Virus record (IMG/VR): IMGVR_UViG_3300025073_000989
DNA length: 64,000 nt
Source: a virus
Taxonomy: Duplodnaviria > Caudoviricetes
Reading direction: 5' to 3' (one strand)
The notes beneath the pieces were generated by a model. It searched no databases. It was not told the origin of the DNA and saw only the letters and a list, made by a program, of their open reading frames with translations. This document shows positions 42,582 to 50,923 of this stretch, one piece after another. Numbering within the stretch: position 1 is the first letter of the stretch; every line of letters begins with the position of its first letter. A program made the translations under genes and the position numbers.

Positions 42582-42707
42582 AATGGTGTAGAAAAGAGAT
42601 ACTTCATTCCAAGAGCCGGTCAGTAGTTCGAATCTACTTAGGTCAGCAGTGGCCTATAACTCAGCTGGTAGAGTTGCTCTCCAAAAGCCTTTTTTCGCTT
42701 ATTCCTT
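42582..42707 (+). ncRNA. yrlA: Y RNA with tRNA-like domain (YrlA type)
   Basis: T arm agtag-TTCGAAT-ctact (42622-42638), closed acceptor-like stem taggtca/tggccta, then D arm actc-agctGGta-gagt: permuted tRNA order T-AS-D, next to a Ro60 gene. Confidence 0.8.
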
Positions 42708-42799: not shown

Positions 42800-42874
42800 A
42801 TGTATATCTATACCTAAGAACCGGGTACTAATAACAAGTAAGCTTTTAACAAGTAAATTTTGGAGACAAAAACG

Positions 42875-44206
42875 ATGGCAAAAACAAATGTACCTCGTCA
42901 GGCAATATACACACATCAAGGAGCAAAATCAAAACATATTAGTCCGGAACAGCTGTTACGGCGATCAGTCATGAGCTGCTTATTGTGGGAAAACGAGTTT
43001 TATGAAGATGGTGAAACAATAGCTACAAGAATAGCAAATACCATTGCTCTAGTTGCTCCTGAAAAGGTAGCTTTAATAGCTATCGAAGCCAGAGAAAAAA
43101 TGAAATTAAGGCATATACCTTTATTTATAGTACGTGAAATGGCAAAACTTAATACACATAAATATTTAGTTTCACATACTTTAAATAGAATAATTCAACG
43201 AGCAGACGAACTTACAGAATTTCTAGCATTGTATTGGAAGGACGGTAAACGGCCGATTTCTGCGCAAGTTAAGAAAGGATTAGCTTCTGCTTTTTCTAAG
43301 TTTAATGAATATTCATTAGCAAAGTATAATAGTGATGGAGAAATAAAACTAAGGGATGTTCTTTTTCTTTCTCATGCTAAACCAAAAGATGAAGAACAGG
43401 CTACTTTATGGAAACGCTTAATAAACAACGAACTTGTTGTTCCAGACACTTGGGAAGTATCTCTATCTGCTGGAAAAGATAGAAAAGAAACTTGGGAGCG
43501 TTTAATAAACGAAGATAAACTTGGCGGTTTGGCTTTTTTGCGCAATTTAAGAAACATGAAAGCTGCTGGTGTTTCAGAAGATATTGTTTTTTATGGTCTA
43601 AATAAACTAAATGTAGAAAGAATTTTACCTTTTCGTTTTATTACTGCGGCTAGATATGCTCCCCAGTGGGAAGATGAAATCGAAACAGTGATGTTGAAAT
43701 GTCTAGAAAGCAAAAATAAACTAAAAGGAACTACAGCACTACTTATTGATAGATCAGGTAGTATGTGTAGAAAACTATCCGAAAAATCAGAACTTTCAAG
43801 ATATGATGCTGCTTGTGGACTGGCCGTACTAGTAAGAGAAGTAGCAGAGCATGTAAAGATATATACGTTTTGTGGAGGATCTGGTCGTACAGATATTCCA
43901 TTTGAGCTGTTACATATTCCACCAAGAAGAGGTTTCGGTTTAACGGCCGCCCTAGGGTCCTACAAAAACGCAGGAACTATGCTTGGAAGAGCAACTACTG
44001 AACTATATCAAAAAGATAATTTTGATAGACTAATTGTATTAACCGATGAACAGAGCCAAGATAAAGTACCAGATCCTAAAGGATTGGCTTATATGATAAA
44101 TGTAGCCTCTGCCAGAAACGGTGTAGGTTATGGTCCGTGGATTCACATCGATGGCTGGTCAGAAGCAGTAGTTGATTTTATTGAAACACTAGAAACAGTT
44201 AATTAG
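42875..44206 (+). CDS. rsr: Ro60/Rsr RNA-binding protein (TROVE + vWA)
   Basis: LRRSVMSCLLWENEFYEDG, RADELTEFLA, KFNEYSLAKY, TWEVSLS, AFLRNLRNM, vWA MIDAS LIDRSGSM, LTDEQS; GGAG RBS before ATG 42875. Confidence 0.92.
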   Translation: MAKTNVPRQAIYTHQGAKSKHISPEQLLRRSVMSCLLWENEFYEDGETIATRIANTIALVAPEKVALIAIEAREKMKLRHIPLFIVREMAKLNTHKYLVSHTLNRIIQRADELTEFLALYWKDGKRPISAQVKKGLASAFSKFNEYSLAKYNSDGEIKLRDVLFLSHAKPKDEEQATLWKRLINNELVVPDTWEVSLSAGKDRKETWERLINEDKLGGLAFLRNLRNMKAAGVSEDIVFYGLNKLNVERILPFRFITAARYAPQWEDEIETVMLKCLESKNKLKGTTALLIDRSGSMCRKLSEKSELSRYDAACGLAVLVREVAEHVKIYTFCGGSGRTDIPFELLHIPPRRGFGLTAALGSYKNAGTMLGRATTELYQKDNFDRLIVLTDEQSQDKVPDPKGLAYMINVASARNGVGYGPWIHIDGWSEAVVDFIETLETVN

Positions 44207-44222: not shown

Positions 44223-44711
44223 ATGAAAATTATAGAAGGTCTTAGGAAGATCAAACAGCTTGATAGAAAAATTAAAAAAAATATCTTAAGGATTACGGAT
44301 TGGTCGTCTTATTTAGATAACATCGACCAAGCAGAAAAACCATTGTACGGTAAAGAAGAGTTACGGGTAATGATTCAGCAAATAGGAGATTGGTCTAAGG
44401 AAAAGGCGCGTATACGGCACAATATACATATAACCAACGCTTTAAAGAAGGTTATTTTCAAGGGTACGGAAATTACAGTAGATGAACTTTTACTTTTACA
44501 AAGTACTACTATTCCAGATATGCTAGCTGCACACAAAGCGCTAAATCGCAAAGATAAAGGGCGATTTGGTGTTCAAGACGTAAAGACAGTAGTAAGGTTA
44601 CAGTACGACCCAAAAGAAAAAGAAGTTGTAGTTGATAGTCTATTAAATGATTTAGAAATTATCGGTGATATCTTAGATAGAGTAACTTTAGAAACTGATA
44701 TTATTGAATAA
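44223..44711 (+). CDS. coiled-coil protein, DIP1984-like (tentative)
   Basis: MKIIEGLRKIKQLDRKI N-terminus and L..L...N/T C-terminal helix recall that family; family call unverified. Confidence 0.5.
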   Translation: MKIIEGLRKIKQLDRKIKKNILRITDWSSYLDNIDQAEKPLYGKEELRVMIQQIGDWSKEKARIRHNIHITNALKKVIFKGTEITVDELLLLQSTTIPDMLAAHKALNRKDKGRFGVQDVKTVVRLQYDPKEKEVVVDSLLNDLEIIGDILDRVTLETDIIE

Positions 44712-44728
44712 GCAACAAAAGTAAAAAG

Positions 44729-44947
44729 ATTTATACCTCTGATGGTAAAATTGATAAAAAGAAACTTTTACATTGGCGAGTGGGACCACCCACAATTGTG
44801 AGAATTGTGATTCAGGATTTGATTGTTAAGATTTAAAAATGCCACCGTGCTATGTTGATTTCCAAATAAAAATCCTAAATCTGGAAAAAAAAGTTTTTAG
44901 AAAGTTTCTCTCTCTTCAATACCAGTTAGGCAGTCAGAGGTATAAAT
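44729..44947 (+). ncRNA. candidate ~220-nt structured RNA
   Basis: Perfect 14-bp closing helix atttatacctctga/tcagaggtataaat with nested agaaacttt/aaagtttct and ggattt/aaatcc plus hairpins; no ORF. Confidence 0.7.
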
Positions 44948-44969
44948 TTTCAATTTATAGGAATTTGAA

Positions 44970-45419
44970 ATTGAAAAACTTCGAGCTTTAAGTAATAGCC
45001 TTGATACTACCACACAACACTATTCTACATGTACAGAAATTATTGATGAATTAGTAAAGCTGCGTCAACGGTGTTACCCATCAAGAGTAGTAATAGTAGA
45101 TGGTATCGGCCATTATGTTAGTACGGCAATTGCTGAAGAAATTGAGCGATTACGCAGCAAACTTGATGACCTTGATAAAAAAGAAAATCTTAACAAAGAA
45201 AACTGTTCTTTACCGATAAGAGGGTTAACTCCCTACTCCATAAGAAAGACAAGATTTTGGTTTTTTTATTATAAATTTGAAATTCTTTTTGATGAAGACC
45301 CTATCTATAGTGTTATAAGTGGTTCTTCTTGCTATAGTGAAATAAAACAAATTTGTGCTGCGTTGAATGGTGCTTTTAATTTAGAATATTCAGAAAGGGT
45401 ACTAGATCAACTTAAGTGA
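44970..45419 (+). CDS. hypothetical protein with probable ATT start (missed by ORF track)
   Basis: 150-codon open frame, AGGA 7 nt upstream, stop overlaps next start (GTGA). Confidence 0.55.
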   Translation: MEKLRALSNSLDTTTQHYSTCTEIIDELVKLRQRCYPSRVVIVDGIGHYVSTAIAEEIERLRSKLDDLDKKENLNKENCSLPIRGLTPYSIRKTRFWFFYYKFEILFDEDPIYSVISGSSCYSEIKQICAALNGAFNLEYSERVLDQLK

Positions 45420-45812: not shown

Positions 45813-45885
45813 GGAGATGTATTTCAAAGGGGAGAATGTTGGCCAGTTGGGCGTGAAGGTGTAAGTTCGAATCTTGCCATCTTTT
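45813..45885 (+). pseudogene. degenerate tRNA
   Basis: GGAGATG/CATCTTT acceptor and GTTCGAATC T loop, but broken anticodon arm and no CCA. Confidence 0.55.
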
Positions 45886-47791: not shown

Positions 47792-48535
47792 ATGCCAAAA
47801 GAGAATATAATTATTGTTGGAGACATACATGGTAAATGGGGAGAGATAAATTTTCTAATTAATAAGAAAAGTCCTAGAATTGTACTTCAGTGTGGTGACT
47901 TTGGGTTTTTTCCAAAGTTCCATAATACAAGAGGAATAGACTCAGAAGAATTTGAAATGTATGAACATACCAAAATCAGAAAACCATGGAATCAATACGG
48001 TATTAAAAACCCTAATACCGTGGTATATTTTGCTCCCGGTAATCATGAGGACTGGAATTCTTTAGATGAGTTAGAAGTAAATAAAAATTTTGAATTAATG
48101 CCAAACGTATTTTATCAACCATTTGGTAGTACAATTACTCTTCCAGACGGGAGAACGGTACTATTTTGTGGCGGAGCTAGATCTATTGACAGAGACTGGC
48201 GCACCTCAGGGGTAGATTGGTTTGAACAAGAAGAAATAAGTTATAGAGATATGGATAGACTTCCAAACATAGCTGTAGATATAGTTATATCCCATACTTG
48301 CCCTGAAGAAATAATGCTTCAGATGAGTACTAAAGGAATTTACTATGACCAAACAAACCCTTTACACAAAGACTCATCGCGGCAAGCTCTTTCATACATA
48401 ATGGAAAAATATAAACCAGATTTATGGTATTTTGGGCACTTTCATAGAGAAATTAAAGGTATGTGGAAGAATACTAGATGGTATGCTTTGTCTATGCCTG
48501 AAGGACATGGTAGGTGGTGGAGATACCTAAAATAA
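47792..48535 (+). CDS. calcineurin-like metallophosphoesterase
   Basis: GDIHG, CGDFG, GNHED, SHTCP, GHFH. Confidence 0.9.
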   Translation: MPKENIIIVGDIHGKWGEINFLINKKSPRIVLQCGDFGFFPKFHNTRGIDSEEFEMYEHTKIRKPWNQYGIKNPNTVVYFAPGNHEDWNSLDELEVNKNFELMPNVFYQPFGSTITLPDGRTVLFCGGARSIDRDWRTSGVDWFEQEEISYRDMDRLPNIAVDIVISHTCPEEIMLQMSTKGIYYDQTNPLHKDSSRQALSYIMEKYKPDLWYFGHFHREIKGMWKNTRWYALSMPEGHGRWWRYLK

Positions 48536-48547
48536 AGGAAAATATAA

Positions 48548-48973
48548 GTGTATATACCAGTAGAAGAAGAAAAACTTAAAAAATATGAAACATGGACAGA
48601 AGAAATTTTTGAACAAAAAGATTCATTATCTAACGGAGCAGTACCTCTGTTGTTTTTGTTTGGTGCAAATAAAATAAAAATGTGTAGATGTTATATAAGA
48701 TTCTCACCTAGCATTGTAATTATTGAAAATCTATGTATGCATGAAGTATCTGGAGTATTTTCAACCAGAATTAAGGAAATGTTTTTAACTTTAGCCATAA
48801 GAAGACTAATAACACTAACAAAGAGTGGTGGAAAAAAAGAATTAGTAATTTTTACTAGTAATAAGCTTTTACCTGAAATTTTTATCAATAACGGTTTCAA
48901 ATTTAGAAAAACACTTCCACATGAATTTGGAGAATACAGAGGATCCTTCCTTTTAGGAGATAAATTCAATTGA
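48548..48973 (+). CDS. hypothetical protein, possibly degenerate GNAT fold
   Basis: C-terminal EIFINNGFKF resembles GNAT motif B. Confidence 0.45.
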   Translation: MYIPVEEEKLKKYETWTEEIFEQKDSLSNGAVPLLFLFGANKIKMCRCYIRFSPSIVIIENLCMHEVSGVFSTRIKEMFLTLAIRRLITLTKSGGKKELVIFTSNKLLPEIFINNGFKFRKTLPHEFGEYRGSFLLGDKFN

Positions 48974-49779
48974 ATACTATTTATTTAGAACCACCATCAA
49001 CTGTAGATCTATTTTATCCAAACGACAATATGGAGTTTGCTTTTTGTTCTAGGATTAAACGAGAAAGAGTCTCACAAATAACTGTATTTGCAAAATGTCG
49101 TGAGGTGTTAACCGGTTTTATTAGAACGCAACTGTGTGGTTTTGATCCAAACGCTATACCGTGGTTTTATGTAAGAAAGCGTATAGATTTATTAAAAGTT
49201 AGAATGTTAGTTTTAAAAAGATATACACCCGGAACAGAAATAAATAAAGCGCTGATTTTTAACAACGAAGTGGAGTTTGGAATTAGAATTTTAAATTTAT
49301 TTGAAAAAAAACTAAAATGGACAGAAACTAAAGTTTATAAGGTAGAGTTAATTAAGGAATTATATACTAATGCAATTCCTGATCTCTATATGATAGAGGC
49401 CTCGAAACAATGGTTATTTTCTCCGGCCTGTTTCTCTTTGTTTTTATTATTATTTAGAGCCGGAAAATATTATAGAGATTTATCTGTAAAAGATATTTCG
49501 TCTTTTTTAGCCAGTATAGCTGATAAAAAAATGGAAGAACACTTACATTATAAAAAAGATCAGTGGTTAATATTTCTTAAAAATACCAATAGAATATATA
49601 AAAAAAATATAATAGAACGATACAGACCAGAAAATATAATAAAACGATACAGACCAGAAAGAGTATATAGTAACTCAAAAGAGGGTATATTTTCCATGCT
49701 AAGTGGAACAACAGTGGATAAAGTGTCTTATAAAGCATGGAAAAATATTTTAGATGAACAAGGTAAACAAGATGCTTAG
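48970..49779 (+). CDS. hypothetical protein, paralog family C
   Basis: FAF...CREVL...IDL.K.RMLV shared with 50942-51730. Confidence 0.75.
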   Translation: MNTIYLEPPSTVDLFYPNDNMEFAFCSRIKRERVSQITVFAKCREVLTGFIRTQLCGFDPNAIPWFYVRKRIDLLKVRMLVLKRYTPGTEINKALIFNNEVEFGIRILNLFEKKLKWTETKVYKVELIKELYTNAIPDLYMIEASKQWLFSPACFSLFLLLFRAGKYYRDLSVKDISSFLASIADKKMEEHLHYKKDQWLIFLKNTNRIYKKNIIERYRPENIIKRYRPERVYSNSKEGIFSMLSGTTVDKVSYKAWKNILDEQGKQDA

Positions 49780-50923
49780 TATCGTAGAGTTTATAAAAAA
49801 ATGTAAAGACATCGATTTAGTAAATCAACTACTATGTTTAAAATTAAAGTTAAATATTAAAAAACAGCCAATAGCTTTAAAGGCTGGAAACACCGAATAC
49901 TTATACCTATACAATCGTACTGAAAAGTCCCCTAATTGTATTATTTCTAACGAAGCTAATGGTTTAATCTTAGATAAAGAAGGAAAAGTAGTAAGTAGAA
50001 GCCTTAATCATTTATATAATGGTGAAAGCTTTAAAGAAAAAATTGATTGGGATAAAGCAACAGCAGAAGAATTTATAGATGGAGTACAAGTTACACTATT
50101 TTTTTACAAAGACTATTGGTTTATACAAACTAGAGATGATATTAACGGTAGAAATTTAATTCATCAGAATGATATTTGGAGTATTAACTACGAAGTGTCA
50201 CATTTGCTTCAAAAACAAAGATATTACACAAATATCTTTAATCAGCTAGATAAAGATAAAACATATACATTTGTATACGTTCGTGCACAAGAAGTACAAA
50301 ATTTAGATAGTAATAAAAACAAACTGTATTTAATAGCAATTTATAATAAAGAGACTGAAGGGTACTTAACTGAAGAAGAGCTAGATGAATATAAATTAAT
50401 TTCTGGTTTTAGTAGACCAAGAAGATTCGCAACAGTATCATTTTCTTATTTTAATAAAAGAATTACTGATTTTTCTACTTTAGTAGTTGTTAACCAAGAC
50501 ATTTCTAAAAAACCCAAAGTAGAACAAAGATTTAAGTTCGAAAGAAAGGCGGAAACACAAAACGAGACCTCAGTTGTTATAAAATACTTAGCAGAAAAAG
50601 TAATTCAAGGAAGGCATCAAGAGGTATCATTAAAAAATTTTCCAGAGTATAGAAGACTAATAGCTTTATTTATAAGAGTAAAATTAGATATAATTTCTTT
50701 TGTACAAAAAACAATAAAAGAAAATAAAGAAACATCCTTAACTACTTTTAGTGAGCAAATAAAAAGACATCACCTAAGCGATATACTGATTGCATCTAAA
50801 AAAACTCCCGAAAGTATTAGGATAAACGTAAGCAGAATAGACAGTAGTAGATTTATTAAACTAGCACAGATAAGATATTGGACACAATATGACGATGCTA
50901 TAAATGCAAGTAAAACTATATAG
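49772..50923 (+). CDS. T4 Rnl1-like RNA ligase fold, catalytic Lys apparently replaced
   Basis: EANGLILDKEGKVVSRSLNHLYN (cf. ECRGLI..SRPF.KFFN); motif I reads EFIDG instead of KxDG. Confidence 0.7.
   Translation: MLSIVEFIKKCKDIDLVNQLLCLKLKLNIKKQPIALKAGNTEYLYLYNRTEKSPNCIISNEANGLILDKEGKVVSRSLNHLYNGESFKEKIDWDKATAEEFIDGVQVTLFFYKDYWFIQTRDDINGRNLIHQNDIWSINYEVSHLLQKQRYYTNIFNQLDKDKTYTFVYVRAQEVQNLDSNKNKLYLIAIYNKETEGYLTEEELDEYKLISGFSRPRRFATVSFSYFNKRITDFSTLVVVNQDISKKPKVEQRFKFERKAETQNETSVVIKYLAEKVIQGRHQEVSLKNFPEYRRLIALFIRVKLDIISFVQKTIKENKETSLTTFSEQIKRHHLSDILIASKKTPESIRINVSRIDSSRFIKLAQIRYWTQYDDAINASKTI

What the first reader, a model, noticed from the sequence alone, without database searches (positions are those of the whole stretch)
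44223..44947. Coiled-coil gene followed by a ~220-nt highly paired RNA, directly downstream of Ro60
Seen: 18 bp after the stop, a perfect 14-bp helix (44729-42/44934-47) encloses nested stems tggt/acca, attga/tcaat, agaaacttt/aaagtttct, ggattt/aaatcc, hairpins gtggg-acca-cccac and cacaatt-gtgag-aattgtg, and an exposed GATT/GATTG-rich tract; no ORF. The gene resembles DIP1984-like coiled-coil proteins (tentative). Inference: a protein-ncRNA pair forming an uncharacterised RNP co-transcribed with Ro60/Y RNAs, the best candidate here for an undescribed system.
Basis: partly seen in the sequence, partly recalled or inferred. Interest (0 to 1): 0.8.

Follow-up and report, generated by a model that had tools for sequence, protein, structure and literature searches.

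The report
Phage protein gene with heptad-repeat RNA
Directly behind a small helical protein gene of unknown function, this giant-phage-like genome encodes a roughly 220-base knotted RNA that follows the same gene in 37 of 38 related loci, carries a row of 7-base units, matches no catalogued RNA family, and is probably one half of an undescribed protein-RNA particle that does not depend on the neighbouring Ro60 gene.

Summary
The 14-bp helix, the nested stems and the hairpins are at the stated coordinates, and the segment folds better than all shuffles.

The segment is more than a hairpin. A covariance model built from relatives finds 39 distinct copies, each above 105 bits, and the window's copy scores 140 bits. 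In 37 of the 38 copies with enough upstream sequence, a homolog of the 162-aa protein ends -5 to +27 nt before the RNA on the same strand.

Covariation supports four helices, two of which cross to form a pseudoknot: 97.5% of cells are paired against 82% in shuffles (0 of 500). A fifth, variable stem co-varies as well.

The centre of the RNA is an array of 7-9 heptamers (G autocorrelation at lag 7, z = 16), and length differences between copies come in steps of about 7 nt.

The protein has the DIP1984/DUF6847 fold (PDB 3KDQ), whose function is unknown. No other locus has Ro60 within 6 kb, so the proposed Ro60 link is not conserved.

Neither Rfam 15 nor my literature searches turned up the RNA. 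Earlier runs of this scan noted the same gene-plus-RNA superfamily on other DNA. I re-checked one of those leads and confirmed the pair in phage T5.

Binding of the protein to the heptamers is inferred, and the function is unknown.

The parts
42860..44206 (+). Ro60/TROVE gene, given as context only. It is adjacent here but not in any related locus.
   Evidence: Pfam TROVE 3.8e-16 and phrog_850 2.5e-42. No Ro60 within 6 kb in the 38 other loci.
44223..44711 (+). Gene for a 162-aa helical protein (P0001), a complete stand-alone member of a phage clade with the DIP1984/DUF6847 fold.
   Evidence: 293 homologs, mostly about 150-200 aa and aligned end to end, apart from a few shorter fragments. Relatives hit NF038048 and PF20935 over their full length, mostly below the curated cut-offs. 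AlphaFold2 model has pLDDT 95, and its only PDB match is 3KDQ, TM 0.62-0.68.
44726..44950 (+). The structured RNA. It is a member of an uncatalogued family, and the covariance-model match spans 44726-44946.
   Evidence: Model R1 gives 139.9 bits, E about 1e-30. No Rfam match at E <= 10 other than one chance-level snoRNA row (snoU30, 20 bits, E = 3.1).
44729..44743 (+). P1, 5' strand of the closing stem. It pairs with 44933-44947.
   Evidence: 14 family pairs, 11 of them with changes on both sides. The inverted repeat was confirmed.
44933..44947 (+). P1, 3' strand.
44750..44754 (+). P2, 5' strand (AUUGA). It pairs with UCAAU at 44916-44920.
   Evidence: Columns 30-34/272-276 of A5: 97% paired, 3 of 5 pairs with double changes.
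44760..44768 (+). P3, 5' strand (AGAAACUUU). It pairs with 44901-44909. The sequence of this stem differs in every relative.
   Evidence: Cognate strands give -8.7 kcal/mol against -4.6 for non-cognate strands, p = 2e-14.
44780..44793 (+). P4 hairpin, GUGGG-ACCA-CCCAC. The family consensus is GCUGG-ACYA-CCAGC.
   Evidence: 100% paired. This window supplies the double changes at two of the pairs.
44794..44862 (+). Heptamer array of about 9 units: AAUUGUG, AGAAUUG..., AUUCAGG, AUUUGAU, UGUUAAG, AUUUAAA, plus a 14-nt (two-unit) insertion. It is degenerate here compared with relatives.
   Evidence: Family G autocorrelation peaks at lag 7 (z = 16) and lag 14 (z = 11). Array lengths fall into classes of 54-55, 62-63 and 69 nt. 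In this window alone the periodicity is not significant (275 of 2000 shuffles).
44863..44878 (+). Invariant A-rich strand CAAAUAAAAAUCC, followed by the 5' strand of the pseudoknot (CCUAA, 44874-78).
   Evidence: Invariant columns in A4 and A5. Pseudoknot columns 208-213/281-286: 97% paired, 4 of 6 pairs with double changes.
44926..44930 (+). 3' strand of the pseudoknot (UUAGG). This stem crosses P2 and P3.
44961..45419 (+). Downstream open frame of 152 codons with no ATG/GTG/TTG for 134 codons. It probably starts at AUU 44970, behind AGGA at 44959-62. It is not part of the module.
   Evidence: It is the most extreme of seven such frames in the window, with no ATG at all. It has no homologs. 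In relatives the next gene likewise starts 10-30 nt after the RNA.

Best explanation
Window 44726-44950 encodes one member of an undescribed family of pseudoknotted RNAs of about 200 nt. The family is found in uncultured, mostly large phages, always immediately 3' of a gene for a roughly 160-aa protein with the DIP1984/DUF6847 fold.

Architecture (shown here): closing stem P1, a GAUAAAR junction, P2, a variable P3, the P4 hairpin with an ACYA loop, a single-stranded track of 7-9 heptamers, the invariant strand CAAAUAAAAAUCC, and a stem that crosses P2/P3 to form a pseudoknot.

Mechanism (inferred): the scaffold displays the heptamer track, and several copies of the neighbouring protein bind along it, one per 7 nt, to give a protein-RNA particle. 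The RNA lies inside polycistronic tRNA-operon transcripts, so it is probably cut out by the enzymes that release the tRNAs (inferred).

What the particle does is unknown. Its constant setting among tRNA and RNA-repair genes suggests a role in tRNA or RNA metabolism during infection. The Ro60 gene next to it in this phage is a neighbour, not a partner.
For: Shown:
- 39 distinct RNAs score 105-183 bits, with nothing between those scores and noise. None occurs among the 53 bacterial or archaeal pattern hits.
- 37 of the 38 copies with enough upstream sequence have the protein-family ORF (E 1e-18 to 1e-70) ending -5 to +27 nt before the RNA on the same strand.
- Covariation on A5: 97.5% of cells paired against 82.4% in shuffles, 20 pairs with double changes against 11, score 0.489 against 0.18, 0 of 500 shuffles. 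Sliding the partners drops pairing to 28-47%. P2 and the pseudoknot stem cross.
- P3 co-varies: p = 2e-14.
- Heptamer period: GG-to-GG spacing is 7 nt in 66 cases, 8 in 29 and 14 in 17. Autocorrelation z = 16 at lag 7. Length differences between copies come in steps of 7-8 nt.
- The motif letters differ between clades (UGGNNAA, YCAAGG, URUGAUU, and YAAA in T5) while the period stays at 7. That fits a co-evolving dedicated partner better than a universal host factor.
- Distant protein homologs (26-29% identity) and phage T5 gene T5.085 (profile E = 4e-7) also have structured downstream RNA with 7-spaced motifs.
- tRNA genes lie on the same strand in 22 of 38 loci, often directly before the gene or 6-18 nt after the RNA.
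Against: - There is no direct evidence that the RNA accumulates or that the protein binds it.
- The protein family is not strongly basic (median pI 7.8) and has no known RNA-binding domain.
- This window's own heptamers are degenerate, with a single GG, and their periodicity is not significant on its own.
- One family RNA (L080) follows an unrelated zinc-ribbon ORF.
- Gene-RNA adjacency within one phage lineage could partly reflect inherited synteny, although the T5 and distant-homolog cases argue against that.
- The AAG(+7)AAG enrichment test was designed after I had seen the pattern.
Confidence: 0.55

Rival explanations
1. The RNA is a cis-acting intercistronic or 3'-UTR element rather than a free RNA. 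The protein, or the ribosome terminating 1-5 nt upstream, remodels the fold to autoregulate the protein gene or to set translation or stability of the flanking cistrons. T4 gp32 works this way, with a pseudoknot plus a repeat-rich operator on its own mRNA.
For: The stop codon lies 1-5 nt before P1, so a terminating ribosome must open P1. A ribosome-binding site and start codon for the next gene follow 10-30 nt after the RNA, with no terminator between them. In the window, a 10-bp hairpin (44947-56/44968-77) that competes with the P1 extension covers the likely AUU start of ORF2.
Against: The downstream genes belong to several unrelated families or are tRNAs, so no common regulated target exists. 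A 200-nt, five-helix pseudoknotted fold with invariant single strands is far more than known autoregulatory operators need. The two readings are not exclusive.
Confidence: 0.2
2. The RNA works without the neighbouring protein. It might be a sponge or decoy for a host RNA-binding factor that reads repeated GG/GGA-type motifs (CsrA-like), or a ribozyme or other RNA-only machine. Under this reading the adjacency only ensures co-expression.
For: Many heptamers in GC-richer members resemble CsrA sites (UCAGGAC, ACAAGGAU). The pseudoknot and the invariant single strands are typical of RNAs with an activity of their own.
Against: The motif letters change between clades (UGG, CAAGG, UAUG, YAAA) while the period is kept, which a fixed host factor would not tolerate. 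The near-obligate linkage to one protein family persists across deep divergence. AT-rich members, including this window, have almost no GGA.
Confidence: 0.12
3. One reading: the RNA is a second, Y-RNA-like partner of the Ro60 protein encoded just upstream, and the coiled-coil protein joins a Ro60 particle.
For: Ro60 ends 16 nt before the gene on the same strand. A YrlA-like element (31 bits, below the cut-off of 69) lies upstream of Ro60. The 5' and 3' ends of the RNA pair in a long stem, as they do in Y RNAs.
Against: No Ro60 lies within 6 kb in any of the other 38 loci, and none is near T5.085. The YrlA model does not match this RNA. The module's conserved partner is the DIP1984-like gene.
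Confidence: 0.03
4. The element is only a terminator or processing hairpin, a mobile element (a MITE with terminal inverted repeats), or an intron or bypass element that joins ORF1 to the start-less ORF2 in the same frame.
For: A perfect terminal inverted repeat is present. ORF1 and ORF2 share a frame, and ORF2 lacks a canonical start. GAA-TAA at the end of ORF1 and TAG-GAA before ORF2 resemble take-off and landing sites.
Against: Nearly all full-length homologs of ORF1 end at the same place. ORF2 has no homologs and is not conserved downstream. The element is single-copy in the window. The internal helices co-vary, which inverted repeats of a DNA element would not do. No group I model matches and no terminator is predicted.
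Confidence: 0.02

Closest known systems
HutP with the hut leader RNA of Bacillus subtilis (PMC2425495), and TRAP with the trp leader (established knowledge)
   Same: A single-stranded row of short motifs at a fixed spacing is read by an oligomeric protein. HutP's site is UAGNNNNUAGNNNNUAG, which is also a 7-nt period.
   Different: Those are 5'-leader attenuators with 3+3 or 11 triplets and no elaborate scaffold. Their proteins have other folds and are ligand-gated. Here the array has 7-9 units inside a pseudoknotted 200-nt RNA placed 3' of the protein's own gene, and binding has not been shown.
DIP1984 family / Pfam DUF6847 (crystal structure 3KDQ, Corynebacterium diphtheriae, function unknown; often labelled 'septicolysin')
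   Same: The fold matches (Foldseek probability 1.00, TM 0.62-0.68). Relatives give full-length but weak HMM matches. The ESM Atlas neighbours carry DUF6847.
   Different: P0001 itself matches neither model. Identity is 11-14%. The phage clade is 160-175 aa, and I found no paper describing an RNA partner for DIP1984 proteins.
Ro60 with Y RNAs (YrlA/YrlB, rsr operon; PMC4201824)
   Same: A protein gene sits next to the gene for its structured RNA, the RNA ends are paired in a long stem, and the setting is tRNA and RNA repair.
   Different: The RNA architecture is different, with no tRNA-like module and no YrlA match. The partner protein is different, and Ro60 is not conserved nearby.
T4 gene 32 autoregulatory operator (pseudoknot plus repeated UUAAA/UAAA tract; from my own knowledge, not checked here)
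   Same: A pseudoknot lies next to a repeat-rich unstructured tract on the protein's own mRNA, as a possible site for cooperative binding.
   Different: The T4 operator is 5' of the gene, small, and bound by an OB-fold single-strand-binding protein. Here the element is 3', much larger, and conserved as a fold.
Type III toxin-antitoxin systems (ToxIN and relatives)
   Same: A repeat-bearing RNA is encoded beside the protein it is thought to bind.
   Different: ToxI-type repeats are 34-45 nt, precede the toxin gene, and are cut by the toxin. Here the repeats are 7 nt, lie inside one folded RNA, and follow the gene.

Membership tests
   139.9 bits over model positions 1-202. The window was one of the 13 seed sequences, so the match is partly by construction. 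The 26 non-seed members score 105-183 bits.
   ORF 44223-44711 scores E = 2e-58 against the family HMM and ends 14 nt before the match.
   The phasing is visible (URRGAUU units) and the extra length equals two units. The window's own lag-7 signal is not significant, at 275 of 2000 shuffles.
DIP1984 family (NF038048) / DUF6847 (PF20935) | HMM score above the curated cut-off | tested here: not met
   P0001 has no hit. Relatives score 21-39 bits against a cut-off of 70 (NCBIfam). One relative, P0010, passes Pfam at 29.7 against 27.
DIP1984 family (NF038048) / DUF6847 (PF20935) | Same fold as 3KDQ | tested here: met
   Foldseek E = 3e-3, probability 1.00, TM 0.62-0.68 over the full length. It is the only credible PDB hit.
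Y RNA (YrlA, RF02553) | Match to the Rfam model | tested here: not met
   No match at E <= 10 over 44712-44960. The only YrlA-like match is at 42592-42698.
Y RNA (YrlA, RF02553) | Conserved linkage to a Ro60 gene | tested here: not met
   0 of 38 related loci have a Ro60 homolog within 6 kb (tblastn at E <= 1e-3).
Y RNA (YrlA, RF02553) | Binding to Ro60 through the conserved stem | not testable with these tools
   This needs immunoprecipitation or a binding assay.
Intrinsic terminator | GC-rich hairpin followed by a U tract that ends the transcript | tested here: not met
   None is predicted at this site. The next gene's ribosome-binding site follows directly in most relatives.
Group I intron / mobile inverted-repeat element | Rfam intron match, an interrupted host gene, or multiple copies | tested here: not met
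   No Rfam match. The upstream protein is complete. The element is single-copy in the window.
TRAP / HutP-type attenuator RNA | Periodic triplets in a 5' leader overlapping a terminator or antiterminator, bound by a TRAP- or HutP-fold protein | tested here: not met
   Only the periodicity is shared. The location is 3' of the gene, and the protein fold is a helical bundle.

The most novel reading that the evidence does not exclude
The gene and RNA make a widespread, undescribed phage ribonucleoprotein, present from uncultured giant phages to phage T5. A helical-bundle protein polymerises in 7-nt register on a pseudoknotted scaffold RNA released from tRNA operons. The particle acts on host or phage tRNA and RNA-repair biology, for example as a counter-measure to host tRNA-targeting defences.
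Probability: 0.15. Interest if true: 0.9.

Novelty: categorically new. Interest (0 to 1): 0.8.

Why it matters
Few bacterial or phage RNAs of this size and complexity remain without a family. Each earlier one (tmRNA, 6S RNA, Y RNAs, OLE) led to new biology.

This case offers several things at once:
- a pseudoknotted RNA with strong covariation support;
- a dedicated protein partner from a domain of unknown function that already has a crystal structure (3KDQ);
- a built-in 7-nt ruler that predicts the stoichiometry of binding;
- a relative in phage T5, a genetically tractable phage, where the gene is currently mislabelled as a tail fiber protein.

Together these make the function of the DUF6847/DIP1984 family directly testable. 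They also add an unrecognised component to the tRNA and RNA-repair regions of large phages. For annotation, the result removes an apparent link to Ro60.

Tried and rejected
Ideas tested and dropped:
- Intron or translational-bypass joining of ORF1 to ORF2 (same frame, GAA-TAA ... TAG-GAA). Dropped because nearly all full-length homologs end where ORF1 ends and ORF2 is not conserved.
- Stop-codon recoding. The intervening frame holds TAA, TAG and TGA stops (read).
- MITE or repeat element. The element is single-copy in the window.
- G-quadruplex formed by the GG tracts. AT-rich members, including this window and L007, lack the GG runs.

Searches that found nothing or failed:
- tblastn of P0001, P0010, P0045 and ORF2 against GenBank phages gave no match. 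T5 was reached only with the profile.
- The DUF6847 model did not hit T5.
- An exact 27-mer from the RNA gave no hit in viral contigs.
The RNA pattern scan replaced it.
- The look-up of encoding contigs found no record for P0001.
- Foldseek against Swiss-Prot models gave nothing informative.
- Literature searches for DIP1984/DUF6847, T5.085, heptamer-repeat RNAs and phage structured RNAs found no description.

Tools not available:
- No whole genome is held for this window.

Weak methods:
- A generic heptad-phase score did not separate the distant loci from A-rich background.
- Whether the invariant AAAUCC pairs with the conserved GGUUU downstream, or with the pseudoknot partner, could not be settled, because those positions never vary.

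Full report
**Setting.** The window is AT-rich (34% GC). It has almost all genes on the + strand, many short ORFs and eight or more tRNA genes. The protein's own cluster occurs on contigs of up to 276 kb, and no cellular genome is held for the window. It therefore reads as part of a large uncultured phage. ORF 42860-44206 is a TROVE/Ro60 protein whose nearest DNA relatives are the TROVE genes of crAss-like phages. A weak YrlA-like match lies upstream of it (31 bits against a cut-off of 69).

**The observation.** The gene 44223-44711 ends with TAA at 44709-11. The perfect 14-bp helix 44729-42/44934-47 encloses attga/tcaat, agaaacttt/aaagtttct, the gtggg-acca-cccac hairpin and the other stems. 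The + strand folds at -59 kcal/mol with z = -3.8. The complement folds equally well (z = -5.1), so the strand had to be settled by comparison with relatives.

**The protein.** A profile search returned 293 homologs. They are mostly 150-200 aa and aligned end to end, apart from a few shorter fragments. The gene is therefore complete, which removes my early idea that the RNA is an intron or bypass element joining it to the start-less frame downstream.

P0001 itself matches no Pfam or NCBIfam model. Its relatives match DIP1984_fam and DUF6847 over their full length, mostly below the cut-offs. An AlphaFold2 model (pLDDT 95) shows four long helices and a beta hairpin. Its only credible PDB neighbour is 3KDQ, the Corynebacterium diphtheriae protein of unknown function, with probability 1.00 and TM 0.62-0.68. 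The ESM Atlas neighbours are phage and bacterial clusters that partly carry DUF6847.

**The RNA is a family.**
- The first five homologous loci all had a non-coding gap of 220-780 nt behind the gene. Those gaps share blocks such as GAUAAA, GCUGGACYACCAGCAAGUG, CAAAUAAAAAUCCUGA and CAGGCAGCC, while the outer stem changes sequence and keeps pairing.
- A pattern taken from two of the blocks was scanned over the public collections. A covariance model built from 13 sequences then sorted the hits cleanly. It found 50 matches, 39 of them distinct, all scoring 105-183 bits and all in viral or metagenome contigs.
- The model found nothing among the 53 pattern hits in bacterial and archaeal genomes, and nothing in between.
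- Rfam 15 has no match for the window segment or for four relatives, even at permissive thresholds, apart from one chance-level snoRNA row in the window scan (snoU30, 20 bits, E = 3.1).

**Linkage to the gene.** In 37 of the 39 distinct RNAs, an ORF matching the protein-family HMM (E 1e-18 to 1e-70) ends -5 to +27 nt before the RNA on the same strand, usually 1-5 nt before it. One of the remaining two has only 61 nt of upstream sequence. The other, L080, follows an unrelated zinc-ribbon ORF. The downstream neighbours, by contrast, belong to several unrelated families or are tRNAs.

**Structure.** On the 39-sequence alignment, the four helices I specified are 97.5% paired against 82.4% in column shuffles. 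Twenty of the 30 pairs show changes on both sides, the covariation score is 0.489 against 0.18 (0 of 500 shuffles), and sliding the partners by 1-3 columns collapses pairing to 28-47%.

The four helices are:
- P1, the closing stem;
- P2 (AUCGG/CCGGU in the family, AUUGA/UCAAU here);
- the P4 hairpin;
- the long-range stem CCUNNN/NNNAGG.

P2 (columns 30-34/272-276) and the long-range stem (columns 208-213/281-286) cross, so the fold is pseudoknotted.

A fifth stem, P3, has a different sequence in every member. Cognate strands pair far better than strands taken from other members, at -8.7 against -4.6 kcal/mol, p = 2e-14. Conserved U-G pairs in P1 and P2 would be A-C mismatches on the other strand, so the RNA is read on the gene's strand.

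The second of these competes with the co-varying pseudoknot stem.

**The heptamer array.** The sequence between P4 and the invariant CAAAUAAAAAUCC reads as tandem 7-mers. L059, for example, has UGGACAA UGGACAA UGGUUAA UGUUCAG UGGCUAU UGGUUAG.
- GG-to-GG spacing is 7 nt in 66 cases, 8 in 29 and 14 in 17.
- G autocorrelation across the family peaks at lag 7 (z = 16) and lag 14 (z = 11).
- Array lengths fall in classes of 54-55, 62-63 and 69 nt, so insertions come in whole units.
- The window's copy is the longest and the most degenerate: UGAGAAU UGUGAUU CAGGAUU UGAUUGU UAAGAUU UAAAAAU, plus a 14-nt insertion. Its periodicity is not significant on its own.
- The motif letters differ between clades while the period is constant.

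**Wider reach.** More distant protein homologs (26-29% identity, L012-L017; and L190 on a 212-kb contig) lack this particular RNA. They are instead followed by tRNA genes and by runs of NNNCAAG-type heptamers. AAG(+7)AAG pairs number 14 against 3.9 expected, p = 6e-5, although I designed that test after seeing the pattern.

Earlier notes of this scan describe the same gene-plus-RNA theme in other genomes, including phage T5. I had found the family and the 7-nt period before reading them, and I then tested the T5 lead myself:
- My protein profile hits T5.085 at E = 4e-7. That gene is annotated 'tail fiber protein' but lies in the early/tRNA region.
- T5.085 is followed by a 363-nt gap.
- The gap folds with z = -5.4 and a closing stem of about 20 bp, and it contains a YAAA array of 7-8-nt period.
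- I found no paper on T5.085, DUF6847 RNAs or such repeat RNAs.

**Ro60.** A tblastn search with the window's Ro60 found no homolog within 6 kb of the RNA in any of the other 38 loci, and none lies near T5.085. The recurring context is instead tRNA genes on the same strand (22 of 38 loci), often directly before the protein gene or 6-18 nt after the RNA. In a subset of loci there is also an Rnl1-type ligase, a metallophosphoesterase and a 270-290-aa unknown protein; the window has these at 47792-50923. Some of that context may simply be inherited gene order.

**How it most likely works.**
- Shown: a conserved pseudoknotted RNA with a periodic single-stranded track, tied to one protein family, embedded between cistrons of tRNA-rich operons, with no terminator of its own.
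- Inferred: the neighbouring protein binds the track one subunit per heptamer to form a particle, and the RNA is released by the enzymes that process the tRNAs.

The nearest mechanistic precedents are HutP, whose site UAGNNNNUAGNNNNUAG has the same 7-nt period, and TRAP. The protein fold, the position of the RNA and the elaborate scaffold all differ from those. As a rough plausibility estimate only, seven stacked nucleotides span about the width of a four-helix bundle.

A purely cis-regulatory role, or a host-factor decoy, cannot be excluded.

**Verdict.** The 'protein-ncRNA pair' reading is supported by comparative evidence, and the Ro60 connection is not. The RNA family is uncatalogued and, as far as I could search, undescribed. 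This scan had already met the same superfamily on other DNA.

Noticed in passing
window 44947-45419: The frame 44961-45419 is open for 152 codons but has no ATG, GTG or TTG for 134 codons. This is the most extreme of seven such frames in the window and the only one with no ATG at all. AGGA at 44959-62 followed 7 nt later by in-frame ATT (44970) suggests an AUU start. A perfect 10-bp hairpin (44947-56/44968-77) would cover that start and competes with the outer extension of the RNA's closing stem. The protein has no homologs.
   Followed up: partly
L194 (phage T5, NC_005859 43142-44143, minus strand): T5.085, annotated 'tail fiber protein', matches the DIP1984-like phage family (E = 4e-7). It is followed by a 363-nt unannotated gap that folds strongly (z = -5.4) and carries a YAAA array of 7-8-nt period. 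The annotation is probably wrong, and the RNA is unannotated.
   Followed up: partly
L080 250-442: This is the one family RNA without the DIP1984-like gene directly upstream. It follows a short ORF with CxxC...CxxC motifs instead. The contig is only 2 kb long, so the gene may lie elsewhere.
   Followed up: no
L014 2758-3060 and L016 3507-3830: Behind distant homologs of the protein, a GAUGC...GCAUC stem and a GAUAAAA motif enclose a tRNA or tRNA-like sequence. ARAGORN calls a tRNA-Thr in L014 but nothing at the same place in L016. NNNNAAG heptamers follow. This may be a variant of the RNA with a tRNA inserted.
   Followed up: partly
window 45813-45885: Rfam scores a tRNA here at only 33.5 bits and ARAGORN does not call it. 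It is an aberrant tRNA-like sequence at the head of the tRNA-Leu/Pro cluster.
   Followed up: no
L001 5059-5965 (Bacteroides phage crAss001): About 900 nt with no annotated feature lie directly behind the crAss001 TROVE gene (Gp96). This is a candidate site for Y-RNA-like genes.
   Followed up: no
window 47792-50923: A metallophosphoesterase, two unknown ORFs and an Rnl1-type RNA ligase form a block. Its members recur within 6 kb of the RNA module in 5-18 related loci.
   Followed up: partly
window 44839-44852: This window's RNA has a 14-nt insertion (GCCACCGUGCUAUG), equal to exactly two heptamer units, relative to most relatives. The insertion supplies the ATG of a chance 50-codon ORF (44839-44991).
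   Followed up: yes
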